This document shows positions 1,333 to 61,035 of a DNA stretch of 64,000 nucleotides, in pieces. The notes under the pieces were generated by a model, which was not told the DNA's origin, searched no databases, and saw only the letters and a program-made list of their open reading frames with translations. The DNA is from a virus: the IMG/VR virus record IMGVR_UViG_3300027749_000093, positions 1-64,000 of that record. One strand, given 5' to 3'. Position 1 is the stretch's first letter. Each line of letters starts with the position of its first letter. Made by a program: the position numbers and the translations under genes.

Positions 1333-1428
1333 ATATACTTATTTTACTCAAATATACTTAAAATACTTATAATAAAAAAATCCCACTTTTTAGGGTGAGA
1401 TTTAATAATTTTTAAATTAAATTGTTAA

Positions 1429-3525: not shown

Positions 3526-3545
3526 AATTATTTTTTTTTAATATT

Positions 3546-3830: not shown

Positions 3831-3833
3831 AAA

Positions 3834-38517: not shown

Positions 38518-39137
38518 TGTGGACAGATTTTTTTGACCGTATAGTAGTAATAAATCTACCCAAAAGAGTAGATAGACTAATAGAAGTATCAGAAGAACTT
38601 GACAATTACGGAATTGAATTTGACTTAGTTGATGGAATAGAACATGAAAAAGGCGCAGAAGGGTTAAGACAAACAGTAGAAAACATACTAAAAGATTCTA
38701 TACAAAAGAAGCACAAAGCAATATTGATATTTGAAGATGATTGTTTATTCGTAGAACCAAAGGATGTAGTAGATAGGACAATGGAAGATGCCATAAAAGA
38801 CTTACCTGAATATTGGCACATATTATACCTATCTGCACAAGCTACAGATGGTTTTAAAAGAAGACATTCATCCGCATTACTACAACTAGATAAGGCTTTT
38901 GCTACACATAGTTGGGCTATATCATTACAAGGTATGAAAGAAATCATTGCAGTAGGGCTAGAAGCCCCTATCGATAACTCAATAGTTGATAAGGTTCAAC
39001 CAATGCAAAGGTGCTTCATAACGTATCCAATTTTGACAACACAGAGGGCAGGGGTAAGTGACATAGGTAATACATTTATAGATTGGCATCCGTTTTTAAT
39101 TGGTAGGTATAATCAAAAATTAGCAGAATTAAAATGA
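38517..39137 (+). CDS. Glycosyltransferase family 25-like
   Basis: VINLP.R.DR, ILIFEDD, W.ILYL, THSW.IS, PID. Confidence 0.85.
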   Translation: MWTDFFDRIVVINLPKRVDRLIEVSEELDNYGIEFDLVDGIEHEKGAEGLRQTVENILKDSIQKKHKAILIFEDDCLFVEPKDVVDRTMEDAIKDLPEYWHILYLSAQATDGFKRRHSSALLQLDKAFATHSWAISLQGMKEIIAVGLEAPIDNSIVDKVQPMQRCFITYPILTTQRAGVSDIGNTFIDWHPFLIGRYNQKLAELK

Positions 39138-39832
39138 AAAAAATATCCATCGCAATTCCATCATGGAATAGGTACGAAATGACATTAGAATCCTTTGCAT
39201 CTGTAATGGATGACGAAAGAATAGAAGAAATAATTATTTCAGATGATGCAAGTGACATAGACTTGTATTATACACTAAAGGCAGCAGTAAGTTCTATGCC
39301 TAAAATAAAGATATTTAGAAACAAAGAAAACCAAGATTGCTATAAGAACAAATGTATAGCAGCAAGTTTGTGTAAGTCAGAATTTATAATTATATTTGAT
39401 AGCGATAACCAATTGAATAAAGCATATTTAGATGCGATTTATAATGAAGAATGGGATGAGAAAGTAATTTTTGCCCCTTCATTTGCTAAACCAACATTTG
39501 ATTATCGTGCATTTTCAGGTTTGACAATAACAAAAGAGAATATAAACGAATACTTTGATAAACCAATGTTTTCTACGATGCTTAACACAATGAATTTTTT
39601 TATAAATAGAAAACAATACTTAGACATTTGGGATGGCGAGGTAAACCCTGTGACAGCAGATAGTATTTATTTTAATTATTGTTGGTTAGCAACAGGAAAT
39701 AAAATAAAGGTAGTAGAAGGAATGGAATACAAACACTTAGTACATTCAGGAAGTCATTATGTAAATAATGTTTCTAGAACAGGAAACTTTTACGAAGAAG
39801 TAGAAACCAAAATAAGAAATATATGTCAATAG
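39134..39832 (+). CDS. Glycosyltransferase family 2 (GT-A)
   Basis: ISIAIP.WNR, EIIISDDAS, IFDSDN. Confidence 0.88.
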   Translation: MKKISIAIPSWNRYEMTLESFASVMDDERIEEIIISDDASDIDLYYTLKAAVSSMPKIKIFRNKENQDCYKNKCIAASLCKSEFIIIFDSDNQLNKAYLDAIYNEEWDEKVIFAPSFAKPTFDYRAFSGLTITKENINEYFDKPMFSTMLNTMNFFINRKQYLDIWDGEVNPVTADSIYFNYCWLATGNKIKVVEGMEYKHLVHSGSHYVNNVSRTGNFYEEVETKIRNICQ

Positions 39833-40575
39833 TTCAATCAAGAAGTTACGGGAGACTTGGGAACGTATTGTTTCAAATAGCTGCTGCTGCATCTTACGCA
39901 TTAAAACATAACCTAGAATTTTCTGTACCAAATGAAACTAATGATGAATATTGGAATCCATTATACTTACAACACTTACATAACGACAAATGGGTTAATG
40001 GCATAGAAGACATACTTGTAAACGAAAACGGATTTAGATTTCAAGACATTCCATTTGACGAATATTGGAGGGGAAAACAAATAGTCTTAAATGGTTATTG
40101 GCAGTCATGGAAGTACCTAGAAGAATACAGAAAGGAAATATTATACCTATTTGATTTAAGATGGAAACTAAAGCCACAGACTGCATCTATACATATTCGC
40201 AGAGGTGACTACTTACATTTAACCGATAAGCATCCACCATACACATTAGAATACCTAAACGATGCCATTAATTATTTAATAAACAATACAGGAGTAGAAA
40301 ACTTTGAAGTTTATTCAGATGATACAGCATGGTGTTTGGAAAATTTAAACCACATACCAAACATTAAAATAATTGAAACAGGAAACGAATTAGAAGATAT
40401 GGTTGAAGCATCATGTTGTGCATTTAACATTTGTTGTTCTAGTACATTCTCGTTTTGGATTGCTTGGCTTAACAGAAACCCAAATAAAATTTGTATATTC
40501 CCTAAACTATGGTTTGTGGAAGGATATCATCTAGATACAACCGATTTACTAGACCCATCATGGATAAAACTTTAA
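39823..40575 (+). CDS. Glycosyltransferase family 11 (alpha-1,2-fucosyltransferase-like)
   Basis: GRLGN.LFQ, GYWQS.KY, HIRRGDY, YSDD..WC, STFS.W.AWL. Confidence 0.92.
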   Translation: MSIVQSRSYGRLGNVLFQIAAAASYALKHNLEFSVPNETNDEYWNPLYLQHLHNDKWVNGIEDILVNENGFRFQDIPFDEYWRGKQIVLNGYWQSWKYLEEYRKEILYLFDLRWKLKPQTASIHIRRGDYLHLTDKHPPYTLEYLNDAINYLINNTGVENFEVYSDDTAWCLENLNHIPNIKIIETGNELEDMVEASCCAFNICCSSTFSFWIAWLNRNPNKICIFPKLWFVEGYHLDTTDLLDPSWIKL

Positions 40576-40577
40576 AT

Positions 40578-41177
40578 ATGTACGCATTAACAATTGAACC
40601 CGATAGTGTAATGTTTGACTTTGCATTATACTATGATATGGTAGCAGAAAGACTACCTGATAACTGTAAGATTGCAGAAGTAGGAATAGCTAATGGTAAA
40701 TCAGCCATATACCTAGCAGAAAAAATATTGTCTTTAGGTAAAAAAATAGACAGATTTGTATTAATAGATTCTATGCAATATGGTGGTAATGTACAGATAC
40801 AAACAATAGTAAATCACTTAGTAAAAAGTGGTGTAGGGGAAAGTTGTGAACTTATTATAAAAGGAAGCCTTGATGCTAGTTGCGAATTCCCTGATGATTA
40901 TTTTGATTATGTTTTTATAGATGCATCACACGAATACGAATTAACAAAAGCAGATATAAGACTTTGGCACAGAAAAGTAAAAGGAGACGGATTTCTTTCA
41001 GGACACGATTACAATGCAACAGATGTAAGAAATGCAGTAGATGAAGTACTACCTACATTTACGGTATATGTTAACCAACAAACTCCAACTAAAATATTAG
41101 AATCCATTATAACAGATAATAATTGGGGTATTTGGGAATACACAATTAATTGGCAAACTAAAAAAGTAATAAAATGA
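40578..41177 (+). CDS. Class I SAM methyltransferase (Methyltransf_24-like)
   Basis: EVG...GKS, FIDASH.YE...DI..W...VK..G...GHDY. Confidence 0.88.
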   Translation: MYALTIEPDSVMFDFALYYDMVAERLPDNCKIAEVGIANGKSAIYLAEKILSLGKKIDRFVLIDSMQYGGNVQIQTIVNHLVKSGVGESCELIIKGSLDASCEFPDDYFDYVFIDASHEYELTKADIRLWHRKVKGDGFLSGHDYNATDVRNAVDEVLPTFTVYVNQQTPTKILESIITDNNWGIWEYTINWQTKKVIK

Positions 41178-42169
41178 AAACAGCATTAGTTTTAGGTGGA
41201 CATGGAATGATAGGAATGCAACTTGTCAAAAGACTTAAAAAAGAAGGATTTTGGGTAAGGTCGGTAGATATAAAACAACCTGAATTTAGTAAGTCAGAAG
41301 CAGACCAAAGTTTAATATTAGATTTAAGAAGTGAATTTAATATGTCTAAAGTTTTATTTTCACCAAATCAATTAAATATTTCAGATAAAGAAAATTCTTT
41401 TGATGAAGTGTATATGTTGGCAGCGCAAATGGGCGGTGCTTTGTATGTATTCAGTAAAGAAAATGATGCAGATATTATACATGATTCAGCTATAATGAAT
41501 CTTCATGTAGCATCAATAGCAGCTAAATTAAGTATCAAAAAATTATTTTTTAGTAGTTCAGCTTGTTGTTATTCAGAAAGATTACAAGAAGATTTAAATA
41601 GTGCAGCATTAAAAGAAAGTAGTGCATGGGAAGGAAAACCTGATTCTGTTTATGGAATAGAAAAATTAATATCAGAACAAGTATATGATTCTTATCGCAG
41701 AAATTATGGATTAGATGTAAGAATAGGCAGATTTCATAATATATTTTCAACAGAATGTACATACAAAGGAGGAAGAGAAAAATCACCTGCAGCAGTATGT
41801 AGAAAAGTTGCCGAAGCAAAAGATGGAGATTCGATTGAAATATGGGGAGATGGATTGCAACAAAGGTCATTTCTATGGATAGAAGAATGCTTGGATGGAA
41901 TCAGAAAACTAATGGATAGCGATTATGTGCATCCTATCAATATTGGTTCTGACGAAATGATTTCAATTAATGATTTAGCAAAAATGGTTATTGAAATTAG
42001 TGGCAAAAATCTTACAATAAAAAATGTAGAATCAAATGCTATTGGTGTTAGGGGTAGAAATAGCGACAATACACTTATAAAAGAAGTATTAGATTGGACT
42101 CCAACACAACCACTTAGAAAAGGAATGGAAAGTCTTTATTCATGGATTAATAAACAAGTATCATGCTAA
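41174..42169 (+). CDS. GDP-mannose 3,5-epimerase-like extended SDR
   Basis: GG.G.IG; AA.MGG; SSACCY; YG.EKL; GGREK.PAA.CRK; WGDG.Q.RSF; GVRGRNSDN. Confidence 0.88.
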   Translation: MKTALVLGGHGMIGMQLVKRLKKEGFWVRSVDIKQPEFSKSEADQSLILDLRSEFNMSKVLFSPNQLNISDKENSFDEVYMLAAQMGGALYVFSKENDADIIHDSAIMNLHVASIAAKLSIKKLFFSSSACCYSERLQEDLNSAALKESSAWEGKPDSVYGIEKLISEQVYDSYRRNYGLDVRIGRFHNIFSTECTYKGGREKSPAAVCRKVAEAKDGDSIEIWGDGLQQRSFLWIEECLDGIRKLMDSDYVHPINIGSDEMISINDLAKMVIEISGKNLTIKNVESNAIGVRGRNSDNTLIKEVLDWTPTQPLRKGMESLYSWINKQVSC

Positions 42170-42795
42170 TACCATTACAACCAATACTAGAGAAATATAA
42201 TATTAAACTTAATGGTGTTGCACATATTGGCGCACATTGGGCGCAAGAGAATTCTACTTATATCGAATGCGGATGTAAGGAGTTTTTATATGTCGAACCT
42301 GTTAAACAAGCGTTTAATATTTTAGTAGAAAAGTTTAAGGATAACGATAATGTAATACTTAAAAACTTTGCAATAGGAAGTACTCCATCAATAGGGGTAA
42401 TGTATGTTGATACCACAAATCAAGGGCAAAGCAATAGTTTATTAGAACCATTAGTACACCTAGAACAACACAAAGAAGTAATATTTAATGGAGAACCTGA
42501 AGTAGTAAAAGTTGTGACACTAGATTCATTAAACATTTCTAAGAACTTGAACTTATTAATGATAGATACGCAAGGGTATGAATTAGAAGTTTTAAAAGGT
42601 TCTACTTCTGTATTGAATCAATTTGATTTATTATATCTAGAAGTAAATAGGGAAGAAACATATAAAGGATGCCCTATGGTAGAAGAATTAGATGAGTTTT
42701 TAAAAGAATATAAATTTACAAGGGTAGAAACAAAATGGGCTTCTGACTACCATTCTTGGGGTGATGCAGTTTGGATTAAAAATAATTTGTTATGA
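42163..42795 (+). CDS. FkbM-family methyltransferase
   Basis: HIGAH, EP, SNSLLEP, IDTQGYELEVLKG, EVN....Y.G, WGDA. Confidence 0.9.
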   Translation: MLIPLQPILEKYNIKLNGVAHIGAHWAQENSTYIECGCKEFLYVEPVKQAFNILVEKFKDNDNVILKNFAIGSTPSIGVMYVDTTNQGQSNSLLEPLVHLEQHKEVIFNGEPEVVKVVTLDSLNISKNLNLLMIDTQGYELEVLKGSTSVLNQFDLLYLEVNREETYKGCPMVEELDEFLKEYKFTRVETKWASDYHSWGDAVWIKNNLL

Positions 42796-43547
42796 TAGGT
42801 ATTTATAAAATAACTTCTCCTAATAATAAAATATATATAGGGCAAAGTATTGATATAGAAAATAGAGTTAAAAAAAATTATAGTAAAGGATTATGTAAAA
42901 ATCAAATATTTCTTTATAATTCTATAAAAAAATATGGTTGGAATAATCATAAATTTGAAATAGTAAAAGAATGCATGATTAATGAATTAAATTATTTAGA
43001 AAAATTTTATATTAAATTTTATAATAGTTTTAATACAAAAAATGGATTAAATTTAAGAAGTGGTGGCAGTTCTACTTCTAAAGTATCAGAAATAACTAAA
43101 GAAAAAATGTCTAAATCTTGGGAAAACGGGAAAAGGACAAATAAATCTAAAGAATTACATAATGCTGCAAGAAAAATAAATCAATATACAATAGATAATG
43201 TTTTTATAAGAACATGGGATTATATCTCTCAAGTAGAAAATGAATTAGGTTTTTATAGAAGCAATATATGTAAGGCTTGTAAAGGAAAATGTTATTCCGC
43301 ATATGGTTATAGATGGTCGTATATAGATGAAGAAAAAACATATAATACAATGCGTATGGGAATGAAACAAAGAATACCTGTTTATCAATATTCATTAAAT
43401 GGAGAATTTATTAAAAAATGGGATTTTGTAAATGATGCTGCGATATATGTAAATGGAAGTGTTGTTGGTATAAATAAATGTTGTCATGGTATTTATAAAA
43501 AAGCATATAAATATATATGGTCTTTTAATTTTAATCAAAAATCATAA
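42792..43547 (+). CDS. GIY-YIG homing endonuclease with NUMOD1 repeats
   Basis: GIYKITSP..KIYIGQS; two QY...G.FI..W...I...C.G....AY.Y.W units. Confidence 0.88.
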   Translation: MIGIYKITSPNNKIYIGQSIDIENRVKKNYSKGLCKNQIFLYNSIKKYGWNNHKFEIVKECMINELNYLEKFYIKFYNSFNTKNGLNLRSGGSSTSKVSEITKEKMSKSWENGKRTNKSKELHNAARKINQYTIDNVFIRTWDYISQVENELGFYRSNICKACKGKCYSAYGYRWSYIDEEKTYNTMRMGMKQRIPVYQYSLNGEFIKKWDFVNDAAIYVNGSVVGINKCCHGIYKKAYKYIWSFNFNQKS

Positions 43548-43550
43548 TTT

Positions 43551-44354
43551 ATGATTGACGTACCTGATTGGGCAAAACCTCAAATTTTTACTGTATATCC
43601 ATACGAAAATTTATTAATTTTTGAAGAGTGGGTAATAATGCAATCATTGCCTGAAACCAATCGTGAATATCTACCTGTAATGTGGACATCTTATCAAGTA
43701 AATAATAATTATGGAAATGATGTAGAAGCACTAGTAAGACTTCAGAATTTTATAAACGAACTACCAAAGGACAAAAAGTATTGGACAATTGTTCAGTATG
43801 ATGATGGTATTTTAGTAGATGTTTCAAGAATAGATTTGTTACAGTTTAGTATGAGTAAAAATATAGGTATTCCAATTCCTTTATTATCTATGCCACATTC
43901 TTATGTTCCCATTAAAGAAAAGAATTACATCGCATCATTTATAGGCACACATACGCATCCAATAAGAGAAAAAATATTTAACATAACTAGCAAGGGTTAT
44001 TACATATCTGATGCAGCACATAATACAAAAGAATTTTGTAAAATAATATCAGAGTCTGATTTTGGTTTGTGTCCTCGTGGATATGGACTTAATAGCTTTA
44101 GAATAGGGGAATGTATGCAGTATGGTACAATACCGGTTTATATATCAGATGAGTTTGTTATACCACTCGATTTAGATTTCTCAGAATACGGGATATTAAT
44201 ACCTGAATGCGATGCTGATAACATTGAAAGAATACTGAAAAGTTACACCCCGTTGCAAATAATTGATATGCAAGATAAGTGTAAGCAAGTTTATCAAGAA
44301 TATTATACATATGCAGGGGCTTTAAACAAAATTATGAAATATCTTGAAATCTAA
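43551..44354 (+). CDS. Exostosin-like glycosyltransferase (GT47)
   Basis: S.F.LCPRGYG..SFR..E....G.IPVYISD...P. Confidence 0.85.
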   Translation: MIDVPDWAKPQIFTVYPYENLLIFEEWVIMQSLPETNREYLPVMWTSYQVNNNYGNDVEALVRLQNFINELPKDKKYWTIVQYDDGILVDVSRIDLLQFSMSKNIGIPIPLLSMPHSYVPIKEKNYIASFIGTHTHPIREKIFNITSKGYYISDAAHNTKEFCKIISESDFGLCPRGYGLNSFRIGECMQYGTIPVYISDEFVIPLDLDFSEYGILIPECDADNIERILKSYTPLQIIDMQDKCKQVYQEYYTYAGALNKIMKYLEI

Positions 44355-44904
44355 TATTATTCATAGCATATATTATCAAGAACGATTACCTAGATTATTA
44401 AACGAATTGTCTAGTAATGGTATAACTGATTATGAATTATGGGAAGGTATAATTGACCAAAAGTCAAGTCAAAAAGGTATCAATCAAAGCCACAAACAAA
44501 TAGTAGAATACGCACAATTAGCTAAGTGGGATGAGGTACTAATAATGGAAGATGATATTAGATTCTGTGGTGAAGGTTCATTTGAATATTTCTTACAAAA
44601 CAAGCCTGAATCATTTGATATTTATTTAGCAGGCATTTACATGGGGGAAATACTACCTGATAATACGGTAAAAACATTCTCAGGACTTCATTGCTACATA
44701 GTACATTCTAAGTTCTATGAAAAGTTTTTATCTACACCAACCGATGCGCATATTGATAGGGCTTTATCTGAGTTAGGTGAGTTTAAAGTATGCAATCCTT
44801 TTGCTGCAATTCAATACAATGGATTCTCTTCAAACACTAGAAAAGAAGAAAATTATGATTATTTACTAAATAATCGGGAATTATATGGTAATTTTGTACT
44901 ATAA
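44344..44904 (+). CDS. Second GT25-like glycosyltransferase
   Basis: G...SH..I, VLIMEDD..F, P..FDI..G, HCYIV, HID. Confidence 0.82.
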   Translation: MKSNIIHSIYYQERLPRLLNELSSNGITDYELWEGIIDQKSSQKGINQSHKQIVEYAQLAKWDEVLIMEDDIRFCGEGSFEYFLQNKPESFDIYLAGIYMGEILPDNTVKTFSGLHCYIVHSKFYEKFLSTPTDAHIDRALSELGEFKVCNPFAAIQYNGFSSNTRKEENYDYLLNNRELYGNFVL

Positions 44905-49900: not shown

Positions 49901-49934
49901 TTAGTGGGTAGCCAAGTGCTGCCCACTAATTTTT
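49901..49934 (+). terminator. Intrinsic terminator after MCP
   Basis: ttagtgggtagc-caagt-gctgcccactaa followed by T5. Confidence 0.85.
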
Positions 49935-52303: not shown

Positions 52304-55300
52304 ATGCGTAAAATACTTTTTTTTATAGTTTTTATTTTTATGTACTTTTTTGGGCAATCTCAATACGCACCAACTTCGGCTAAAACTAGATTTGTAAATG
52401 GTATTGGATTATCTACAAAAGATACCGCTAGTTTATCAAATGCAGGTGATACATTAGCAATGATTGTAGGAAAAGATAGTTTGGTTTATTTTAAATATAA
52501 AGGTTATTGGAAACCTATTGCATATAATAGTTCTTTAAATTTTTATGTTAAATATAGTGACACCGCAACAATGTTAAGCAGTTATTATAATAAAACTGCT
52601 ACCAATTCATTACTAAGTAACAAATTAAATATAAGTGATACAGCTAGTATGTTATCGGGGTATAAAACATATTACCCAAGAAATGCAATTAGCGGAGGAA
52701 CAGGAATATCATATAATCCTAGTACGGGTGTTATTACTAATACCTCTAGCGGAACGGTTACAAGTGTGGCAACAAACAATGCAAGTGGAATTACAGGAGG
52801 AACAATTACAACTAGTGGAACTATTGCAGCAGATACTTCTATTCTTGCTACTAGATTAAGAGTTCAAAAAGGAATTGATTCAGTAAGTGCAAATGTCAAT
52901 TTAAGGGTTATATATACTGACACATCTAGTATGCTATCGCCTTATTATCGAACCGCAACCGCAACTTCAGCACTAGCTTTAAAACTTAATATTAGCGATA
53001 CAGCAGCAATGTTATCACCTTATGCAAGAAGTGCAGTTGGCGGTTATGTTCCGTACACAGGTGCAACAAGTAATGTAAATTTAGGTACTAAAAATATTTA
53101 CGCAAACGCAATATACACGGGATTTAGTGCTATTACGGCATCGGGTACACAAGTTGTGTTAACGGTCAATTCAGCACCCGAAATTTTAGTAAGCGGAAGC
53201 GGTGGGCAAACTATAAAACTACCCGATGCAACTACTTTACAAAACGGAACAACTTATAGTTTTAATAACAACCAAAGTAGTGGGGCAATAACAATAAATA
53301 ATAACTCTAACACATTAGTAGTTTCTATCCCATCGGGCGGATATGCCGAGGTTATTTTATTAGATAATTCAATTGCTGCGGGTAGTTGGGATAGACACTT
53401 CCAAGCACCCGCAAACGTAAGTTGGAGTACAAATACTTTTGACTATCCGGGTTCTATAACATCGGCTACTTGGAATGGTTCTACTATTGCAATTAATAGG
53501 GGCGGAACAGGCGCAACAACGGCAAGCGCAGCATTAACTAATTTGGGTGGGTTATCGATTAGCGACACGGCTACAATGCTATCACCATACATAAGAACGG
53601 CAAACTATGGGTTAACTAAAACAGGTCAAGGATTAGGGGTTGATACTGCTTTAATCGCTACAAGATTAAGAGTGCAAAAGGGGATTGATTCGTTGGCTAG
53701 TGTTGTAACGGGTGGTTACGTTCCATACACAGGAGCAACAGGAGCAGTTAATTTAGGGGCTTATGGGTTAACATCAAGCGATATATTAGTTAGTAAAAAT
53801 CAAAATGCAGAAACAAAGAGTACAATATCTAACACAACTGCAGGTACAGGTTCAGGAAGTAAATTAAGATTAATATCTGAGTCTACAACTGCAGGGGAAG
53901 GTTCACTTGCTAAATTTTCAGGAAGTTACACACCTTATAAAACTATTGGAGCAGGTGATTTAGTTTTATATAATACTACTGCAGGTAATATTACTATTTT
54001 AAATGATAAAATTAATAAAAATATAAACTTTGCAGCAGGTGGTGTATCTACTGCTCAAGCAACATTATTTAGCACAGGAAACTTTGCCATAGGTTCTACT
54101 ACGGATGATGGGAGCAATCAGTTACAGGTAACGGGGAGTAGTAAGTTTACGGGTAATGTTACAACAGATGGAACATTTGCAAGTAATTCTGCAACACTTT
54201 TAACAAATGGAACAACAGGTGGTGTTTCTATAACATCAACTAATAATAGAGTTAGAATAAATGGAGGAGTAGATGTTAGTGTAACTAATTTATCCGCAAT
54301 TTCAGGAAGTTTAAATATTAAAAACGCACCTGCAGGTGCTGTTAGTAGCACAGGTTCATTAATAGATGTATTAGCAACTATAAATGGTGGGGCATCAGCA
54401 GGTATTGCAAATGTATTAAATTTATCTTCTCCTCAATCAACACAAGCAAGTGGAGATATGAGGATAATTAATATATCTCCAACATTTACAAAAGATGCAG
54501 GTACAGGGGTGTCATTTAGAGGTATTTATTATAATCCAAATATTTCGGGTTTAACAAGTGGATTTACTCATAATGCTTATGAAAATACATCGGGAAATGT
54601 CTTATTAGGTACAACTAGTGGAAGCACAGGAATAGGAGCAACAAGTACAATTAACGCATCTGCTATTTTACAAGTAACAAGCACAACACAAGGGATATTA
54701 CCACCTAGAATGACCACTACACAAAGAGATGCAATATCATCACCTGCAACGGGTTTACAAGTATATAATACAACAACAAACACTAATGACTTTTACAATG
54801 GTACTGCTTGGGCTAGTGGTGCATCAGGTACTTACGTTACATCCGTTACAGGAACTTCACCAATAGTTTCTAGCGGTGGAACTACTCCTGCTATTTCTAT
54901 ACCTGTGGCTACTACTTCGGTAAGTGGATATTTAAGTAGTACGGATTGGACTACTTTTAATAATAAACAAGCGGCATTAACAAACCCCGTTACAGGTACA
55001 GGTACTACTAACTACCTACCTAAATTTACAGGTGCAAGTACAATAGGGAATAGTGCAATTACTGATGATGGTACTACTGTTACTTTAAATAGTAGAGCAT
55101 TGAGTGGAACAAGTGCAAGTTTTAGTGGAGGAATAAATTTTACAGGAACTCTTGGTTCTAGTTCACCATTAACTATAATACAATCATCGTATGCGGGTGG
55201 GGGAAATTCAGCTACAAAAATTGTAGTTTATAATCCGTTTAATGGACTTGATTCTAGGCTTGGAATGAGTGTAATGAATACATCAGGTAGTTTTGTAGAA

Positions 55301-57550
55301 TTAATAAGACTTGATGGTTCTACATCAATAACTAATATTTATGGTGCATTAAGTGGAACAAGTGCTACATTCTCTAGTAGTGTACAATCTACAAATATTG
55401 GAGTAGGTTATGCTCCGCAATCAAATATTGGAGCATTTATTTATAGAAACGCATCTGATTATGCATTAGCAGTTCAACAAGATGGTTCAGGTGTACCATT
55501 TCAAGTAACAAGCGGTGCAGTAATTAGATTGTATGTCGCTAATGGAGGAAATGTAGGTATAAATACAACAAGTCCTTCTTACTTACTAGATGTTAATGGT
55601 ACAGGAAGGTTTAGTGGGATATTAACTACAAGTGGCGGTAGAGTAACTATTCAAGGCACTAATCAAAATGCAGTATGGTTTAATCAAAATGGAGGGGGTA
55701 CAAGTACAGGTTATTTAGTAGGTAGAAGTTATTCATCAGACGATGCAAATGATTTCTTTATTTATAATGTAGCAACTTCAACAAGAAATTTAGCCATATC
55801 CTCAACAGGAGCAGCTACATTTAGTAGTAGTATTAATAATTTAGGATTAAATGCTGCCCCTACTTCAACAGGTACAGGAGTTTCTTATTTACAATTTAGA
55901 AATACAGGGAATGATTTTTATATAGGAAATGAAAGTAGTACGGCAGGAGGATTCTTTACAGGCTCTAGTGCTTATGCAAGTGTTTTATATAGTAGTACGG
56001 CACAAGAATTTATAATAGGAGGAGTAAGAAGATTACAAATAGCTACTACAGGAGCAGCTACATTCTCTAGTAGTGTAACGGCAGGTAGTATTACTGCAAA
56101 TGGTACAGGATATTCAATCTTTCAAGGTAGTGCATATCTGCAAACTCCTGCATCAACAGGATTATCTTTTGGTTGGAATAGAAGTGGTGGCAATGGTGAG
56201 GCAACAATAGTTTGGGGAGCAGCCGCAGCAGGATATAATTTTGAGATTGCAAGTGTATTAAGTGGAACAATTACTCCAAGACTTACTATATTAACAACAG
56301 GTGCTGCCACATTTTCAAGTTCAGTTACCGCAACATCATTTATAAAAACAAGTGGCACATCTGCTCAAATATTAGCTGCGGATGGTTCGGTTATTACCGC
56401 AGGAGCAAACATTACAATAAGTGGAGGTACAATATCATCAAGTGGAGTTTCAATAACATTATCTGCAATTGGTTCAACTCCTAATGCTAATGCTGCGACA
56501 TTAACAGGTTCAGCATTAAATTTAGAACCTGCATCTGCATCATTTGGTGGTGTGGTTACAACAGGAACACAAACATTTGCAGGTACTAAAACATTTAGTT
56601 CAACTACTGCACAAGTAGTAACAATAAGAGGAACAAGTGGAGGTGGCACAAATAATTCACAATTAAGATTTTATGGTTCTGCTTCAGCTGCTGATTTATG
56701 GGCAATAGGAAGTGAAGTTGCAACAGGTACAAGTGGAACTGCATTTGATTTTTATAGTATAGCAGGTGCAGCAAATAGATTAAGAATAGATGGAAGTGGT
56801 AATGTAGGAATCGGAACAATTACAATCGGTTCTACATTACAAGTCAATGGTAACGCTGCAATCGGTTATTCAGCAAGTACAGCAGGACCTACTAATGGTC
56901 TAGCCGTTGCAGGTGGTGTAACAATAGGAACTACAACAGACGCAGGATACAAACTAGATGTTAATGGTACAGGAAGGTTTAGTGGTGCATTGAGTGGAAC
57001 TACTGCTACATTCTCTAGTAGTGTTAATGCAGCACAATTAAGTTTAACAGGAACTTTACCATCGGGTAATGTTGCGTTTTATTTAAGTTCAACCATAGGA
57101 ACACCATCTCCAATCGGAATGTATTTAGCCCCTAATTATACAACTGCAGGAACAAGTACAATGACTGATTTTACAATTCAAGCAAGTAGTGATAATGGGA
57201 CAAGAACAACATCAATACATAATGCATTAGTAATTAATGATATTGTTAAAGGAACAGGACATACAATTACTGATAATTATGGATTAATAATCAATAACAT
57301 AGCAGCAGGAACAAATAATACTGCACTTGCAGTAGGCATGGGGTTAAGTCAATTTCTTGATAAAATTGAATTATCAAGTACTTTAAAATTAGGAGCATAT
57401 TCAGTATCAGGATTACCTACGGCAGGTACGGCAGGTAGAATTGCTTATGTTACCGATGCACTTGCGCCTACATATAATGCAACTGTAGTTGGTGGTGGTT
57501 CTGTGAAAACTTTAGTATTTGATAACGGAACTAATTGGACAGTACATTAA
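52304..57550 (+). CDS. Long tail-fibre-like protein with N-terminal Sec signal peptide
   Basis: T/S/G-rich; YVPYTGAT..VNLG, GTVTSV, GNVGI.T, TGAATFSSSV repeats; MRK + hydrophobic core + GQS|Q. Confidence 0.8.
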   Translation: MRKILFFIVFIFMYFFGQSQYAPTSAKTRFVNGIGLSTKDTASLSNAGDTLAMIVGKDSLVYFKYKGYWKPIAYNSSLNFYVKYSDTATMLSSYYNKTATNSLLSNKLNISDTASMLSGYKTYYPRNAISGGTGISYNPSTGVITNTSSGTVTSVATNNASGITGGTITTSGTIAADTSILATRLRVQKGIDSVSANVNLRVIYTDTSSMLSPYYRTATATSALALKLNISDTAAMLSPYARSAVGGYVPYTGATSNVNLGTKNIYANAIYTGFSAITASGTQVVLTVNSAPEILVSGSGGQTIKLPDATTLQNGTTYSFNNNQSSGAITINNNSNTLVVSIPSGGYAEVILLDNSIAAGSWDRHFQAPANVSWSTNTFDYPGSITSATWNGSTIAINRGGTGATTASAALTNLGGLSISDTATMLSPYIRTANYGLTKTGQGLGVDTALIATRLRVQKGIDSLASVVTGGYVPYTGATGAVNLGAYGLTSSDILVSKNQNAETKSTISNTTAGTGSGSKLRLISESTTAGEGSLAKFSGSYTPYKTIGAGDLVLYNTTAGNITILNDKINKNINFAAGGVSTAQATLFSTGNFAIGSTTDDGSNQLQVTGSSKFTGNVTTDGTFASNSATLLTNGTTGGVSITSTNNRVRINGGVDVSVTNLSAISGSLNIKNAPAGAVSSTGSLIDVLATINGGASAGIANVLNLSSPQSTQASGDMRIINISPTFTKDAGTGVSFRGIYYNPNISGLTSGFTHNAYENTSGNVLLGTTSGSTGIGATSTINASAILQVTSTTQGILPPRMTTTQRDAISSPATGLQVYNTTTNTNDFYNGTAWASGASGTYVTSVTGTSPIVSSGGTTPAISIPVATTSVSGYLSSTDWTTFNNKQAALTNPVTGTGTTNYLPKFTGASTIGNSAITDDGTTVTLNSRALSGTSASFSGGINFTGTLGSSSPLTIIQSSYAGGGNSATKIVVYNPFNGLDSRLGMSVMNTSGSFVELIRLDGSTSITNIYGALSGTSATFSSSVQSTNIGVGYAPQSNIGAFIYRNASDYALAVQQDGSGVPFQVTSGAVIRLYVANGGNVGINTTSPSYLLDVNGTGRFSGILTTSGGRVTIQGTNQNAVWFNQNGGGTSTGYLVGRSYSSDDANDFFIYNVATSTRNLAISSTGAATFSSSINNLGLNAAPTSTGTGVSYLQFRNTGNDFYIGNESSTAGGFFTGSSAYASVLYSSTAQEFIIGGVRRLQIATTGAATFSSSVTAGSITANGTGYSIFQGSAYLQTPASTGLSFGWNRSGGNGEATIVWGAAAAGYNFEIASVLSGTITPRLTILTTGAATFSSSVTATSFIKTSGTSAQILAADGSVITAGANITISGGTISSSGVSITLSAIGSTPNANAATLTGSALNLEPASASFGGVVTTGTQTFAGTKTFSSTTAQVVTIRGTSGGGTNNSQLRFYGSASAADLWAIGSEVATGTSGTAFDFYSIAGAANRLRIDGSGNVGIGTITIGSTLQVNGNAAIGYSASTAGPTNGLAVAGGVTIGTTTDAGYKLDVNGTGRFSGALSGTTATFSSSVNAAQLSLTGTLPSGNVAFYLSSTIGTPSPIGMYLAPNYTTAGTSTMTDFTIQASSDNGTRTTSIHNALVINDIVKGTGHTITDNYGLIINNIAAGTNNTALAVGMGLSQFLDKIELSSTLKLGAYSVSGLPTAGTAGRIAYVTDALAPTYNATVVGGGSVKTLVFDNGTNWTVH

Positions 57551-57561
57551 TAAATTAATTT

Positions 57562-57873
57562 ATGTTATACTTAATATTAGCAGCAATATTTAACGCAATG
57601 ATGGATACACTTACGCATCACTTTGATACTAGCGTATTTAAGGGCTTAAACCCTAAGTGGTGGAATCCTAATGTGTCGTGGCAATACAACAATAATTTTC
57701 TAGGAATTGTACGTTTAGATGCGTGGCATTTGGCTAAGTTTGGGATGATAGGTTCAATTTGTATGGCTATGATTTCTTACCATCAAATTTTGGGAAATTT
57801 TAGTATATTTGTATTGCCGATAATTTGGTCGGTAACATTTGAAACATTTTATAAACTATTAAGAAAACCATGA
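57562..57873 (+). CDS. Small membrane protein
   Basis: Three hydrophobic stretches; WWNP..SW, DAWHLAK. Confidence 0.7.
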   Translation: MLYLILAAIFNAMMDTLTHHFDTSVFKGLNPKWWNPNVSWQYNNNFLGIVRLDAWHLAKFGMIGSICMAMISYHQILGNFSIFVLPIIWSVTFETFYKLLRKP

Positions 57874-58115
57874 AAAAAACAATCGCAACCATCGCAATCG
57901 TAAGTCTTTTAGCATTTACCGCAGACAAGTTTATTACGATTAAGTTTACTGAACCACAAATTAACTACCATTGGCAAACATTAAACAACATTAAAGCATT
58001 GGTAGACAAATCAGAGATGCCGCATACGCAAGTTCAGTACATTGTAAAGGGTATCGATTCATTACAACACGACATTCAATTGTCGGCTAAAATTGATTCA
58101 ACATCTAAAAAATAA
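57870..58115 (+). CDS. Small protein with signal peptide (fibre-associated)
   Basis: MKKTIATIAIVSLLAF; helical remainder. Confidence 0.65.
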   Translation: MKKTIATIAIVSLLAFTADKFITIKFTEPQINYHWQTLNNIKALVDKSEMPHTQVQYIVKGIDSLQHDIQLSAKIDSTSKK

Positions 58116-58118
58116 AAT

Positions 58119-58502
58119 ATGAAACATTTATTTATTGCACTTTTACTTTTGCCTTTTGCAGCATTTGCACAAATTGGAAATATTACACAAGACACAACCG
58201 TAGTTAATGGTGATACTGTTTATTATACGCATGGTGCTGCTTTAATTAACCCATGTATTGTAAATGCCAAAGGCGATACTGCTTATAGTCTTACATGGAG
58301 TGCATTTGGCTTAAATCAAGCAGGAGGTAGTTGTAATACTTATGTTGTATTACATGACAAAAAGAATGCACAAGTAGCTGACTTTAATCAACTTATTCCT
58401 GCTGATGTAGTAGCAGTATGGGGAGTAGATTCTGCACCCGTAACTGATTACATTTTGTTTATGAATAAGCGGTTTATCAAGTACACGGCTAAATCAAAAT
58501 AA
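58119..58502 (+). CDS. Small protein with signal peptide (fibre-associated/chaperone-like)
   Basis: MKHLFIALLLLPFAAFA|Q. Confidence 0.7.
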   Translation: MKHLFIALLLLPFAAFAQIGNITQDTTVVNGDTVYYTHGAALINPCIVNAKGDTAYSLTWSAFGLNQAGGSCNTYVVLHDKKNAQVADFNQLIPADVVAVWGVDSAPVTDYILFMNKRFIKYTAKSK

Positions 58503-58522
58503 AACCTTATATTTGGTACATA

Positions 58523-59443
58523 ATGAGATTAATAACTTTTATATGTGTTTTGTTTTTTGCGTTATCAATTAATGCACAAACTCAATATCCTCGTGGGTTA
58601 CCATCTCCATCATCAAATGGGTACATTAAAGAAGGTTATACTCAAATTGATAGCGGTATTATTACCAATGTCAGAGATACATTCCTTGCAAAGTACCCTA
58701 CGTTAATTAAATGGTCAGGTAATAATAAATACTACTATACCAACGGGAATGGTACTGCATGGTATCCGCTTACAACTAATGCTACTATATTTTCTGTAAA
58801 TTCAGGATGGGGATTAGTAAAAGTAAATGATTCTACTTTAAAGGCAGATACATCTATCAATGGTGTAGCTACATGGGCTTTACTGAAAAAGAAAATAGAT
58901 AGCATAGGTGCATTAAAGGTTAATTATACCGATACCGCATCTATGCTTTCTCATTATATCCGTACAGGTTCAGCCGGAACTGTTACATCTGTAGCTACAG
59001 GATTTGGTTTGTTAGGAGGAACAATAACTACTACAGGTACACTTAAAGCAGATACATCTAATGGAGGGCTTACTACATGGGCTTTGACTAAAAAGAAAGT
59101 TGATAGTCTTGGTGCAGTAAAAGTAAACATAGCAGACACCGCTTCCATGCTTACACCATATGTACGCAAATCTTCTACAAATTCTATTTTATATTCGGGT
59201 TCAGTAAACGTAGGTAATATTGTTACGGGTGGGGTTAATATAACCGTTACATTTCCATCTGCGCTAAGTACATCATCTTATTTTATCCTAGGCAGTATTG
59301 TAAGCAATGGAACTCCTGAATTAGATGCTACCGTTTTATGGGTTATTACAAACAGAAGTACAACAAGTTTTACTATACATTTTAGGGAGGATGCAGAAGT
59401 AGCACAAAACATAGCATTTGAATATATTTTATTTGCAAAATAA
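58523..59443 (+). CDS. Short fibre-like protein with signal peptide and C-terminal H-type-lectin/gp53-like domain
   Basis: MRLITFICVLFFALSINA|Q; GTVTSVATG..L.GGTITT.GT shared with long fibre; ITVTFP.A.....Y...TN..TTSFTI. Confidence 0.72.
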   Translation: MRLITFICVLFFALSINAQTQYPRGLPSPSSNGYIKEGYTQIDSGIITNVRDTFLAKYPTLIKWSGNNKYYYTNGNGTAWYPLTTNATIFSVNSGWGLVKVNDSTLKADTSINGVATWALLKKKIDSIGALKVNYTDTASMLSHYIRTGSAGTVTSVATGFGLLGGTITTTGTLKADTSNGGLTTWALTKKKVDSLGAVKVNIADTASMLTPYVRKSSTNSILYSGSVNVGNIVTGGVNITVTFPSALSTSSYFILGSIVSNGTPELDATVLWVITNRSTTSFTIHFREDAEVAQNIAFEYILFAK

Positions 59444-59449
59444 TTAAAG

Positions 59450-59701
59450 ATGGAACAAGGCTTACCGCAAAAAAGAAGATTAGGAATAACACAAGGGGAA
59501 CTTGCAGGGGTTGCAATACTTGTCGTAGGCGCAATATTGATGTTTTGGAAAACAACCGATGTGAGATTATCAGCATTAGAAATTCGTCTTAATGGACAGG
59601 ATAAAATGCAAGAACAAATTAATACAAAACTAGACAAGCTACAAGAAAGCATTAATACTGTCAACTTAACATTAAAAGATAAGGTTGATAAAAAACAATA
59701 A
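59450..59701 (+). CDS. Putative holin/antiholin (one TM plus coiled coil)
   Basis: Hydrophobic segment then heptad coil; lysis region. Confidence 0.55.
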   Translation: MEQGLPQKRRLGITQGELAGVAILVVGAILMFWKTTDVRLSALEIRLNGQDKMQEQINTKLDKLQESINTVNLTLKDKVDKKQ

Positions 59702-59860: not shown

Positions 59861-60436
59861 ATGAAATACCTTATAGTATTTATTCTCATCTTGTCCTGTA
59901 ACCCACAAAAAAGGATAGCTAGACAAGATGAGAAAGCTATTAACTATGTATCTGCAAAAAAACCATTGCTAGATAGACTAACACCAATCGTATTAGCTAT
60001 ACATCCATGCGTTACAGAAGTAGTACGAACAGATAGCATAACTACATACGTTACAGATACTATAACACAAAGAATAAACGTACCCTACTCTGTATACAAA
60101 AACAAGGTACTTGATACAATTATAAACAACATATCTATTTTTGCTGATTCAACTACCATAATGCTTAAATACTTAGGTTCAGTAAAGATTCAAACAAATA
60201 CGGTTTTTAAGACGATTAAAGACGAGTCAGAGTTAAATCGATACAAAGACACACTAATTGTATTTAAGGTCAAGGAAGGGCAGTATATAGGGCAAATAAA
60301 GCAATTGCAGGATGATGTAATGGTTGCGGATAAGGGAAAAGACACATGGTTAAGAAACTTTTGGGTATTACTTGTATCTATGATATCAATTCAAATGCTT
60401 TTGTTGTACTTTAAATTAAAGAAAGGAAAACTATAA
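59861..60436 (+). CDS. Putative unimolecular spanin
   Basis: Lipoprotein signal ending ILSC, beta-rich middle, C-terminal TM helix and basic tail. Confidence 0.7.
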   Translation: MKYLIVFILILSCNPQKRIARQDEKAINYVSAKKPLLDRLTPIVLAIHPCVTEVVRTDSITTYVTDTITQRINVPYSVYKNKVLDTIINNISIFADSTTIMLKYLGSVKIQTNTVFKTIKDESELNRYKDTLIVFKVKEGQYIGQIKQLQDDVMVADKGKDTWLRNFWVLLVSMISIQMLLLYFKLKKGKL

Positions 60437-60948
60437 TGACAAAAAATTATTACACAGAATTCCTTGAGATAGAATACAAAAAAACATCTATCGATATGCC
60501 TACAGTAGTAGTATATGCTAAGACATTAGTGGGTAAGTACGATAAGGAGGTTGTAAGGGCTGCGTATTGTTGTTTCAGAAATGAAAGCGGTAATGGTAAG
60601 AATGGAGTCAACGGAAATTTTTCAGGAATTCAAGCAGACCAAGCTAAGTGGGAAGGATTAGATTTAACCAACGTAATAGGCACATCAGTTAAGAAAGATA
60701 ATTTTGGAGATGTAAGGAGATTCCTTTGCTTTAATGAGAAGGGATACCAAGCCTGTTTTGAATTTCTTTGTTATAAGTTCAAACAACGTGGTGTTTATAT
60801 TGGCGCAGAAAATATTGAAGATTCTAATAAATTAGCACTAGCCTATCTTACTAAATGGGTGGGCTTGTCGGCTAAAGATGCAGCAACGAAAACTGAAGAC
60901 ATAACCAACTTTAAGAGTTTATACAAAAGCAGTATAACCGCAATATAA
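60436..60948 (+). CDS. Putative endolysin (lysozyme-like/GH73-related)
   Basis: NESGNG...NFSGIQ...F..F pattern; end of lysis cassette. Confidence 0.55.
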   Translation: MTKNYYTEFLEIEYKKTSIDMPTVVVYAKTLVGKYDKEVVRAAYCCFRNESGNGKNGVNGNFSGIQADQAKWEGLDLTNVIGTSVKKDNFGDVRRFLCFNEKGYQACFEFLCYKFKQRGVYIGAENIEDSNKLALAYLTKWVGLSAKDAATKTEDITNFKSLYKSSITAI

Positions 60949-61000: not shown

Positions 61001-61035
61001 ATGCCCCCGAAGTGGTTATCGGGGGTATCTTTTTT
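61001..61035. terminator. Probable bidirectional terminator between convergent units
   Basis: atgcccccga-N8-tcgggggtat with T-tract after and A-run before. Confidence 0.8.

What the first reader, a model, noticed from the sequence alone, without database searches (positions are those of the whole stretch)
52304..59443. Tail-fibre module in which four proteins carry Sec signal peptides
Seen: the 1748-aa fibre-like protein (MRKILFFIVFIFMYFFGQS|Q), the 306-aa short fibre (MRLITFICVLFFALSINA|Q) and two small adjacent proteins (MKHLFIALLLLPFAAFA|Q; MKKTIATIAIVSLLAF) all start with a basic-hydrophobic-cleavage pattern. Three have Gln right after the likely cleavage site. Capsid, portal, ring and nozzle genes show no such leaders. 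Known: Gln at +1 (pyroglutamate) is typical of SPase I substrates in Bacteroidota, and phage fibres normally fold in the cytoplasm. Inference: the fibres and their helpers are exported, mature in the periplasm and join particles at lysis. Alternatively they act as exported receptor-blocking or surface proteins. Either would be an unusual pathway for a tailed phage.
Basis: partly seen in the sequence, partly recalled or inferred. Interest (0 to 1): 0.9.

Follow-up and report, generated by a model that had tools for sequence, protein, structure and literature searches.

The report
Phage tail fibres with export signals
An uncultured phage of Bacteroidota makes its two tail-fibre proteins and two small neighbours with its host's secretion signal, so its host-recognition gear probably matures outside the cytoplasm, a route not described for tailed phages.

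Summary
Four of five consecutive ORFs at 52304-59443 start with Sec-type leaders. Three end small-x-small|Gln; the 81-aa one has no clear cleavage site. My own rule flags only 6 of 94 ORFs in the genome, and such clustering arose in 0.17% of shuffles.

The leaders are conserved and translated. 44 of 119 homologues of the long fibre and 26 of 41 of the short one carry them, always with Gln after the cut.

Leaders go with DTxxML repeats and with the Bacteroidota O-glycosylation sequon: 2.98 times the chance number in leader forms, 0.56 times in leaderless forms.

These proteins are the fibres. A sister phage has a leaderless fibre in the same slot, sharing a module at 77% identity. The short fibre models as an intertwined trimer (score 0.77, best control 0.00).

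In cultured Cellulophaga phage phi18:3, three leader-bearing proteins beside the lysis genes are annotated from virion MS/MS.

Export is well supported. Glycosylation and docking onto particles at lysis are inferred. Seven of my eight paper searches bore on this and found no description of it. This scan has noted the same pattern on other phage DNA.

The parts
52304..57550 (+). Long tail-fibre preprotein, 1748 aa
   Evidence: ORF. Residues 271-395 and 864-958 match leaderless GenBank proteins annotated 'chaperone of endosialidase' and 'tail fiber protein'. It has more than 700 homologues. In sister phage L100 a leaderless fibre with a module at 77% identity fills the same slot.
52304..52360 (+). 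Signal peptide of the long fibre (aa 1-19, cut predicted GQS|Q)
   Evidence: The n-region is RK, followed by 13 hydrophobic residues, with Gly at -3, Ser at -1 and Gln at +1. It is conserved as MRKIFLFIAFISMYFLGQA|Q in five relatives.
52361..53713 (+). Proximal part of the long fibre (aa 20-470): five DTxxML repeats, sequon-rich
   Evidence: 10 D-[ST]-[ALVIMT] sequons against 2.0 expected from composition, P=4e-5.
53714..57550 (+). Distal shaft and tip of the long fibre (aa 471-1748), free of sequons
   Evidence: 0 sequons against 4.7 expected, P(0)=0.009.
57562..57873 (+). 103-aa small membrane protein, function unknown
   Evidence: Hydrophobic segments are visible in the translation. The nearest Atlas clusters are unnamed viral proteins of 99-140 aa. 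No family was found.
57870..58115 (+). 81-aa protein with a hydrophobic N-terminus (leader or uncleaved anchor)
   Evidence: Flagged, but no small-x-small|Q site. It resembles the 83-aa leader protein after the fibres in L014 (E=2e-4). 2 sequons against 0.4 expected.
58119..58502 (+). 127-aa exported protein (leader aa 1-17, AFA|Q)
   Evidence: 4 sequons against 0.4 expected, P=0.001. A homologue of 120 aa lies between the two leader-bearing fibres of L005 (E=1e-17).
58523..59443 (+). Short tail-fibre preprotein, 306 aa (leader aa 1-18, INA|Q)
   Evidence: It has a conserved N-domain after the leader, two DTxxML repeats, and a C-terminal tip shared with leaderless P0010, P0011 and P0014. 5 sequons against 1.2 expected. 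The trimer model scores 0.77 against a best control of 0.00.
59450..59701 (+). 83-aa one-pass membrane protein with a coiled-coil tail (candidate lysis protein)
   Evidence: 49% identical to the 78-aa protein after the fibre module of myovirus-like L008 and L013.
59861..60436 (+). 191-aa lipoprotein with a C-terminal membrane helix (built like a one-piece spanin)
   Evidence: Lipobox LSC and a membrane segment at about residue 164. Similar proteins occur in L008 and L014. 5 sequons against 0.7 expected. The spanin reading rests on architecture alone.
60436..60948 (+). 170-aa protein, candidate endolysin by position only
   Evidence: Homologue in L008 at the same place (E=4e-17). No family hit.
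61001..61028 (+). Terminator-like hairpin that ends the rightward late gene block
   Evidence: 10-pair stem with 6 GC pairs and a T run. It is the only strong + strand site after 49901-49929.

Best explanation
The two fibre proteins (1748 and 306 aa) are this phage's tail fibres. They are made as Sec preproteins.

Proposed steps:
1. They are transcribed late, in one block with head genes upstream and lysis genes downstream.
2. The Sec machinery moves them unfolded across the inner membrane.
3. Signal peptidase I cuts before Gln.
4. In the periplasm they trimerise. Their proximal DTxxML repeat region is probably O-glycosylated by the host's general system at D-T-A type sequons, while the distal receptor-binding parts stay free of sequons.
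5. The small exported neighbours (127 aa, perhaps 81 aa) act in the same compartment.
6. Fibres meet the DNA-filled, fibreless particles only when the holin opens the inner membrane or the cell lyses.

Shown here: the leaders and their conservation, their link to sequon-rich repeats, and the tail-fibre identity by slot and homology.

Inferred: actual export, cleavage, glycosylation, and the time and place of docking.
For: 1. Leaders. Three have a basic n-region, a hydrophobic core, small residues at -3 and -1, and Gln at +1. This matches the Bacteroidetes Q-rule (PMC5837995, abstract in the listing).

2. Host phylum. The portal matches 87 GenBank phage records. 86 of them are from Flavobacterium, Cellulophaga, Tenacibaculum or Maribacter phages.

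3. Conservation. By the same rule, 44 of the 119 best homologues of the long fibre have a leader (the window's own P0044 left out), and 44 of those 44 have Gln after a small residue. 67 are leaderless and 8 are truncated or ambiguous. For the short fibre, 26 of 41 homologues have a leader, all 26 with Gln.

4. Link to repeats. Three or more DTxxML repeats occur in 41 of 44 leader forms and 0 of 67 leaderless forms (Fisher P=3e-27).

5. Link to sequons. Leader forms hold 846 sequons against 284 expected (2.98 times). Leaderless forms hold 187 against 334 expected (0.56 times). With the repeat motif itself left out, the densities are still 0.77 against 0.22 per 100 aa.

6. This genome. The four proteins hold 21 sequons against 8.6 expected. 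All other ORFs hold 61 against 48.4. The sequon and its restriction to non-cytoplasmic proteins come from passages of PMC12871550.

7. Other phages. In 12 IMG/VR loci, 13 of 13 ORFs with at least one DTxxML motif carry a leader. Where the surrounding genes are in view they lie at the end of tail modules of different phage types, before the lysis genes. In L008 the genes just upstream hit tape-measure and baseplate-hub families. The L014 leader fibre has a Peptidase_S74 domain at 50 bits against a cut-off of 22.

8. Same slot, both forms. The gene after the p272 homologue has a leader in L096, L097, L098 and L101. It is leaderless in L099 and L100.

9. Trimer. The model of residues 20-306 scores 0.77, with the best of 3 controls at 0.00. 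The runs share at least 75% of their contacts, and partner pLDDT is at least 67. The mark was reached by 20 of 30 solved pairs and 1 of 23 single chains. The tool says these counts hold only roughly here, because I used my own alignment and three copies.

10. Virion evidence in a relative. phi18:3 gp085, gp086 and gp087 have leaders ending YS|Q, SA|Q and NA|Q. Their GenBank notes read 'experimental MS/MS proteomics', and they lie next to the lysis genes. phi18:3 is a distant relative: TerL 28% identity, E=7e-48, and portal 24%, E=3e-29.

11. No T9SS C-terminal domain was found in either fibre.

12. No strong terminator lies between 49930 and 61000 on the + strand.
Against: No signal-peptide predictor was run, so the calls rest on my own rule.

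No data show export, cleavage or glycans for this phage or any relative.

The phi18:3 note does not say which peptides were seen. Its three proteins are not homologous to these fibres by BLAST. Each has only 1 sequon against about 3 expected, so export is not always tied to glycosylation.

Two of the 41 homologues of the short fibre (P0030, P0032) have repeats but no leader.

Three of the 44 leader forms have fewer than three DTxxML repeats. Two of them, P0122 and P0137, have none and hold only 1 and 3 sequons.

DTxxML-repeat proteins with leaders also exist as chromosomal giants in non-phage settings. The repeats could therefore be a general surface-protein module.

The likeness between the mature N-terminus and the N-terminus of leaderless fibres is not significant (hhalign E=0.15). 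How an exported fibre would dock is therefore unknown.

Docking after lysis would have to compete with dilution.
Confidence: 0.55

Rival explanations
1. The proteins are exported but are not parts of the particle. They stay in the envelope of the infected cell as receptor blockers, decoys that keep progeny from sticking to debris, or adhesins. Host recognition would then be done by other, unrecognised virion proteins.
For: Leader-bearing DTxxML-repeat giants occur in bacterial chromosomes with non-phage neighbours (L022, L050, L059, L062, L071), so the module is used by cells for exported proteins. A paper on Porphyromonas phages read Q-rule leader genes of unknown function as modifiers of the host envelope (PMC10367356, passages). 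The module lies next to the lysis genes.
Against: In sister phages the same slot holds an ordinary leaderless fibre that shares a module at 77% identity. In myovirus-like L008 the leader protein is the only fibre-like gene between the baseplate-hub genes and the lysis genes. Leader forms carry the tail-fibre Peptidase_S74 domain. phi18:3 leader proteins are annotated from virion MS/MS. No T9SS signal for surface display was found. In this genome I found no other ORF with similarity to annotated fibres.
Confidence: 0.2
2. The leaders are uncleaved signal anchors. The fibres hang from the outer face of the inner membrane. Either they are released by another protease, or the particle docks at the membrane.
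For: The 81-aa protein has no SPase I site. P0029 and P0031 have a hydrophobic segment about 50 residues in, which looks more like an anchor. The AlphaFold monomer shows residues 2-18 as its only fairly confident helix (pLDDT 76).
Against: Every one of the 44 plus 26 leader forms has a small residue followed by Gln at the expected distance after the hydrophobic core. That is the mark of cleaved SPase I substrates in this phylum (PMC5837995, abstract in the listing). The hydrophobic cores are 12-14 residues, short for a stable membrane span.
Confidence: 0.12
3. The leaders do not work as export signals. Either translation starts downstream, or the hydrophobic N-terminus is a cytoplasmic assembly element, and the fibres fold in the cytoplasm like other tail fibres.
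For: One pipeline started the long fibre at Met13 (P0044) and a relative of the short fibre inside the leader (P0004). No predictor and no experiment has been applied.
Against: Relatives keep an open, hydrophobic leader with conservative changes, and many have no internal Met. The next Met in the 306-aa and 127-aa proteins lies more than 100 residues in. The tie between leader and the periplasm-only glycosylation sequon has no reason to exist under this reading.
Confidence: 0.07

Closest known systems
Cellulophaga phage phi18:3 (Pachyviridae, NC_021794.1) gp085, gp086, gp087
   Same: Three consecutive large proteins just before the lysis genes. Each has a basic-hydrophobic leader ending small|Gln. 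The phage is a distant relative by TerL, portal and two tail proteins. GenBank notes say they were found by MS/MS of particles.
   Different: BLAST finds no similarity to the window's fibres. They have no DTxxML repeats and only 1 sequon each against about 3 expected. I read no paper text on them, and the peptide lists would be in supplements I could not see.
Ordinary leaderless tail fibres of sister phages (L099/L100) and of GenBank records MW202753.1 and MW202484.1
   Same: Same slot after the p272 homologue. One module is 77% identical to part of the 1748-aa protein. Residues 271-395 and 864-958 match annotated fibre proteins.
   Different: They have no leader, no DTxxML repeats, 2-3 sequons in 905-1474 aa, and no small leader-bearing proteins after them.
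Bdellovibrio bacteriovorus MAT fibres (PMC10769870, passages read)
   Same: Trimeric fibres built like phage tail fibres, many with the S74 chaperone domain. They are made with a signal peptide followed by a conserved N-domain. This shows that such fibres can fold outside the cytoplasm.
   Different: They are cell-encoded, used by a predator on its own surface, and not part of a virus particle. Homology to the window's proteins was not tested.
Substrates of the general O-glycosylation system of Bacteroidota (review PMC12871550, passages read)
   Same: Leader plus the sequon D-S/T-A/L/V/I/M/T, enriched about threefold.
   Different: The known substrates are cellular proteins. The word 'phage' does not occur in the review's main text. 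No glycan has been shown on these fibres.
Q-rule leader genes of unknown function in Porphyromonas gingivalis phages (PMC10367356, passages read)
   Same: Phage genes whose predicted signal-peptide cut exposes Gln.
   Different: There they are five genes of unknown function, read as modifiers of the host envelope. They are not tail fibres.
Chromosomal DTxxML-repeat giants of Chitinophagaceae, Pedobacter and Sediminibacterium (L022, L050, L059, L062, L071)
   Same: Leader ending small|Gln and the same repeat, 30-126 copies.
   Different: They have non-phage neighbours, their own conserved N- and C-termini, and a fixed three-gene set.

Membership tests
Sec / signal peptidase I substrate following the Bacteroidetes Q-rule | Basic n-region, hydrophobic core of about 7-15 residues, small residues at -3 and -1 | tested here: met
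   Met for the 1748-, 127- and 306-aa proteins by my own rule and by eye. The 81-aa protein has the core but no clear cut site.
Sec / signal peptidase I substrate following the Bacteroidetes Q-rule | Gln at +1 of the cut | tested here: met
   3 of the 4 proteins here. 44 of 44 and 26 of 26 leader-bearing homologues.
Sec / signal peptidase I substrate following the Bacteroidetes Q-rule | Score from a trained predictor (SignalP, DeepTMHMM) | not testable with these tools
Sec / signal peptidase I substrate following the Bacteroidetes Q-rule | Processed, pyroglutamate N-terminus in the mature protein | not testable with these tools
   This needs proteomics.
Tailed-phage tail fibre | Gene in the fibre slot of the structural module | tested here: met
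   The same slot holds a leaderless fibre in L099 and L100. In L008 the leader fibre follows baseplate-hub genes.
Tailed-phage tail fibre | Sequence similarity to annotated tail fibres | tested here: met
   Local matches only: 42% over residues 271-395 and 45% over 864-958, and 77% to the L100 fibre module. No Pfam, PHROG or PDB family covers the whole protein.
Tailed-phage tail fibre | Intertwined homotrimer | tested here: met
   Prediction only, for the 306-aa protein. Score 0.77, best control 0.00, 580-671 contacts, partner pLDDT 67-81. The monomer model was poor, pLDDT 38.
Tailed-phage tail fibre | Presence in purified particles | not testable with these tools
   The only evidence is the analogy with phi18:3 gp085-087 (GenBank MS/MS note).
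Bacteroidota O-glycoprotein | Non-cytoplasmic location | tested here: inconclusive
   Predicted from the leaders only.
Bacteroidota O-glycoprotein | Sequon D-S/T-A/L/V/I/M/T present above chance | tested here: met
   21 against 8.6 expected in the four proteins. 10 against 2.0 in residues 20-470 of the long fibre. 2.98 times chance across 44 leader homologues.
Bacteroidota O-glycoprotein | Glycan attached | not testable with these tools
   This needs glycoproteomics.
Type IX secretion cargo | C-terminal sorting domain (NCBIfam models) | tested here: not met
   0 NCBIfam families at E up to 0.1 for both fibres. No such Pfam hit either.
Lipoprotein (signal peptidase II substrate) | Lipobox with Cys at +1 | tested here: not met
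   None of the four has one. Only the 191-aa protein at 59861-60436 does.

The most novel reading that the evidence does not exclude
Many phages of Bacteroidota have a second branch of particle assembly outside the cytoplasm. Heads and tails are built inside the cell. The fibres are Sec-exported, capped with pyroglutamate, and coated on their proximal repeats with the host's own O-glycan in the periplasm. They snap onto finished particles only once the holin breaches the inner membrane. The phage's host-recognition gear would then wear host-type sugars. The small exported neighbours would be periplasmic fibre chaperones.
Probability: 0.35. Interest if true: 0.9.

Novelty: new variant of a known kind. 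Interest (0 to 1): 0.8.

Why it matters
Tailed-phage particles are taken to be built wholly in the cytoplasm. An exported, probably glycosylated fibre would add a compartment and a timing step to phage assembly.

It would also tie host range to the host's secretion and glycosylation machinery. It would explain why fibres of these phages may fail to fold or work when expressed in E. coli. And it would bear on how receptor-binding proteins are annotated: tools and papers often use a signal peptide as a reason to call a gene 'not a virion protein' (for example PMC6199706, passage read).

The pattern is not a curiosity of one contig. It occurs in many hundreds of metagenomic proteins and in several phage body plans.

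It can be tested now on a cultured phage, phi18:3.

Tried and rejected
Searches that found nothing useful:
- GenBank phages hold no near-identical DNA and no protein match for the short fibre or the capsid protein. Two other leader fibres (P0051, P0077) hit only short stretches of leaderless fibre proteins.
- Pfam, PHROGs and NCBIfam gave no family above threshold for any of the ten module proteins.
- PDB sequence searches gave none.
- The ESM Atlas gave no usable hit for the 127-aa protein and only unnamed viral clusters for the 103-aa protein.
- The AlphaFold monomer of the 306-aa protein was poor (mean pLDDT 38), so I ran no fold search on it.

Ideas tested and dropped:
- Idea 1: the mature N-terminus of leader fibres is the same anchor as the N-terminus of leaderless fibres. 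hhalign aligns 9 residues at E=0.15, which is not significant. Dropped.
- Idea 2: the phage's sugar-gene cassette (38517-44904) serves the exported fibres. The cassette is present with leader fibres (L096-L098) and with leaderless ones (L099, L100). It is nearly absent from L101, which has leader fibres. Not supported.

Scans and literature:
- The scan of bacterial genomes with the short-fibre alignment found no relative. The second scan, with the repeat alignment, found 176.
- The scan of viral contigs with the 272-aa neighbour found none.
- Of my eight paper searches, those looked for exported or glycosylated tail fibres and found no paper on them. One search retrieved the Q-rule papers. One search was badly framed and useless.
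- Supplements were closed. MS/MS peptide lists for phi18:3 may bear on whether the leaders are removed.

Not used: the search of protein representatives, the look-up of sequencing runs, read laying, the RNA tools, and the second structure job.


Full report
WHAT THE WINDOW IS. The window is the first 64 kb of a 72,427-bp IMG/VR virus record with inverted terminal repeats. GC is about 31%.

It encodes these recognisable genes:
- a primase-helicase
- a large terminase (phrog_6681)
- a portal (phrog_6547)
- a 1141-aa virion protein (phrog_14478)
- a 3073-aa giant protein

The portal matches 87 GenBank phage records at 23-26% identity. 86 of them are phages of Flavobacterium (68), Cellulophaga (15), Tenacibaculum (2) or Maribacter (1). 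The host is therefore very probably a member of Bacteroidota, which is the phylum of the Q-rule.

THE OBSERVATION. My own rule flags 6 of 94 non-duplicated ORFs. They are the four in the finding, a lipoprotein at 59861-60436, and a 61-aa ORF beyond the window. Four flagged ORFs in five consecutive ones arose in 0.17% of 200,000 shuffles of gene order. Head and tail-body genes are not flagged.

Three leaders end small-x-small|Gln. The 81-aa protein has no such site and may be an anchor.

The starts lie 3-20 nt after the upstream stop or overlap it. One pipeline started the long fibre at Met13 (P0044). Relatives nevertheless keep the whole leader with conservative changes, and many have no internal Met.

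ARE THE LEADERS CONSERVED? Yes.
- Among the 119 best homologues of residues 1-470 of the long fibre (the window's own P0044 left out), 44 have a leader and all 44 have Gln after a small residue. 67 are leaderless. 8 are truncated or ambiguous and were set aside.
- Among 41 homologues of the short fibre, 26 have a leader, all with Gln. 3 share only the C-terminal tip and are leaderless. 8 start inside the leader or the repeats. 2 (P0029, P0031) have the hydrophobic segment about 50 residues in. 2 (P0030, P0032) look truly leaderless yet have repeats.

WHAT GOES WITH THE LEADER. The fibres hold a repeat of the form (I/Y)(S/T/A)DT(A/S)(S/A/T)ML(S/T)(P/S/G/H)Y. There are five copies in the long fibre and two in the short one.

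The core of most copies, D-T-A, is the O-glycosylation sequon of Bacteroidota, D-S/T-A/L/V/I/M/T. That sequon is used only on non-cytoplasmic proteins (passages of PMC12871550).

Across the homologues:
- Three or more repeats occur in 41 of 44 leader forms and 0 of 67 leaderless forms (Fisher P=3e-27).
- Sequons number 846 against 284 expected in leader forms, and 187 against 334 in leaderless forms.
- With the repeat motif itself left out, leader forms still have 0.77 sequons per 100 aa against 0.22.

In this genome:
- The four proteins hold 21 sequons against 8.6 expected. All other ORFs hold 61 against 48.4.
- In the long fibre all 10 sequons lie in residues 20-470 (2.0 expected). The distal 1278 residues have none (4.7 expected).
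- The two other leader-type ORFs are also enriched: 5 against 0.7, and 2 against 0.1.

ARE THEY REALLY TAIL FIBRES? Several lines agree.

1. Residues 271-395 and 864-958 of the long fibre match GenBank proteins annotated as fibre proteins. Those proteins start without leaders.

2. Leaderless homologues share a module of the long fibre at 70-86% identity.

3. Seven loci hold relatives of this phage, with capsid identity of 53-81%. Six of them show the gene after the p272 homologue; L102 ends before it.
- In L096, L097, L098 and L101 that gene has a leader. In L097 and L098 small leader proteins follow the fibres.
- In L099 and L100 it is a leaderless fibre (905 aa cut by the locus end in L099; 1474 aa in L100) with a module 77% identical to the window's fibre. 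It has 2-3 sequons and no repeats, and in L100 a leaderless 98-aa protein follows it.

4. In 12 other loci, 13 of 13 ORFs with at least one DTxxML motif have leaders. Where the surrounding genes are in view they close tail modules of quite different phages. In L008 the upstream genes hit tail, tape-measure and baseplate-hub families. The L014 leader fibre has a Peptidase_S74 domain at 50 bits.

5. Residues 20-306 of the short fibre model as an intertwined trimer. The score is 0.77 in two runs and 0.76 in the third, and the best of three controls is 0.00. The runs agree in at least 75% of contacts, and partner pLDDT is at least 67. The mark was reached by 20 of 30 solved pairs and 1 of 23 single chains, counts that hold only roughly here. 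The monomer model was poor (pLDDT 38). This supports a fibre-like trimer; it does not show one.

DO LEADER PROTEINS REACH PARTICLES?

In NC_021794.1, gp085, gp086 and gp087 (547, 785 and 559 aa) lie just before the lysis genes.

phi18:3 is a distant relative of the window's phage: TerL 28% identity, portal 24%, and two tail proteins 26-27%.

Limits of this evidence:
- I saw only the GenBank notes, not the paper or its peptide lists.
- The three proteins are not similar to the window's fibres.
- They have few sequons, 1 each against about 3 expected.

Other cultured relatives, phi38:1 and an elemo phage, have leaderless fibres.

MECHANISM. The rightward block from the capsid gene to 61028 has no strong terminator inside it. 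The fibres are therefore probably made late, together with the lysis proteins that follow them:
- an 83-aa one-pass membrane protein
- a 46-aa membrane peptide
- a lipoprotein with a C-terminal helix
- a 170-aa protein
The lysis gene set is shared with myovirus-like L008.

I infer this sequence: Sec export; a cut before Gln; trimerisation; probable O-glycosylation of the proximal repeats in the periplasm; no further secretion, since no T9SS domain was found; and docking on particles once the inner membrane is opened.

That trimeric, S74-type fibres can be made with signal peptides is shown by the Bdellovibrio MAT fibres (PMC10769870, passages). That fibres can be added to finished particles is classical for T4; I recall this and did not check it here.

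RIVALS. There are three: exported proteins that never enter the particle, uncleaved anchors, and non-functional leaders. They are weighed in their own sections. The strongest point for the first is that the same repeat, with leaders, builds chromosomal giants of 1200-2700 aa in Chitinophagaceae, Pedobacter and Sediminibacterium, among non-phage genes.

IS IT KNOWN? I ran eight full-text searches. Searches looked for exported or glycosylated tail fibres, retrieved the Q-rule papers, and one search was useless. Ten papers were read in passages. None describes a tailed-phage fibre with a signal peptide.

The nearest is a remark on five Q-rule genes of unknown function in Porphyromonas phages (PMC10367356). 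One paper uses the lack of signal peptides as support for phage origin of DGR targets (PMC6199706).

This scan itself has noted the same pattern before on other DNA: 178 notes in at least 158 genomes hold the search words, and several follow-ups reached the same reading. Two other first readers noted the sequons on this same stretch. These notes are not independent evidence. I tested the claims I used.

VERDICT. Export is well supported by comparative evidence. Tail-fibre identity is well supported. Glycosylation and docking at lysis are plausible and testable but not shown.

Noticed in passing
window 1-4037, and 68391-72427 of the genome (beyond the window): About 4 kb of inverted terminal repeat. 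The ORFs at 153-4037 (-) recur mirrored at 68391-72275 (+). IMG/VR also classes the record as having inverted terminal repeats. Whether this is real or an assembly effect was not examined.
   Followed up: no
window 38517-44904: A block of sugar-metabolism genes lies between terminase and portal. An NAD-dependent epimerase and an exostosin GT47 are recognised by Pfam. Relatives L096-L100 have it whether their fibre has a leader or not. L101 keeps only a g9-like gene and L102 only some of the genes. The cultured relatives phi38:1, phi18:3 and elemo have the large terminase (so annotated in phi18:3; taken by position in the other two) next to the portal. It is therefore not tied to the exported fibres.
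   Followed up: partly
L022, L050, L059, L062, L071 (bacterial genomes): Chromosomal giants of 1200-2700 aa have leaders, 30-126 DTxxML repeats and a conserved C-terminus. In four of the five loci (not L062) they sit in a fixed set of three leader-bearing genes among housekeeping genes. The hosts are Chitinophagaceae, Pedobacter and Sediminibacterium. They are probably a cell-surface fibre family that shares modules with phage fibres.
   Followed up: partly
window 59861-60436: A lipoprotein with a C-terminal membrane helix, built like a one-piece spanin, holds 5 glycosylation sequons against 0.7 expected.
   Followed up: no
genome 65777-65962 (-), beyond the window: A 61-aa ORF among the early genes has a strong leader and 2 sequons against 0.1 expected.
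   Followed up: no
window 26681-35902: A 3073-aa giant ORF stands where the 1935-aa gp123 of phi18:3 (MS/MS virion note) and the 1691-aa gp101 of phi38:1 stand, that is, two genes after the gp120/gp099-like small protein. BLAST at E up to 1e-3 found no similarity to phi18:3 gp123. It was not studied.
   Followed up: no
window 58523-59443 and L004, L005, L096: The N-domain that follows the leader of the short fibre (P.GLPSPSSNG...RDTF.AKYPT...GNG..W) recurs on fibres of both podovirus-like and myovirus-like phages. It may bind something common to them, not a lineage-specific tail part.
   Followed up: partly
window 49901-49929: A 12-pair hairpin with a T run lies right after the capsid gene. 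This looks like the usual attenuator that sets the capsid-to-tail protein ratio.
   Followed up: no
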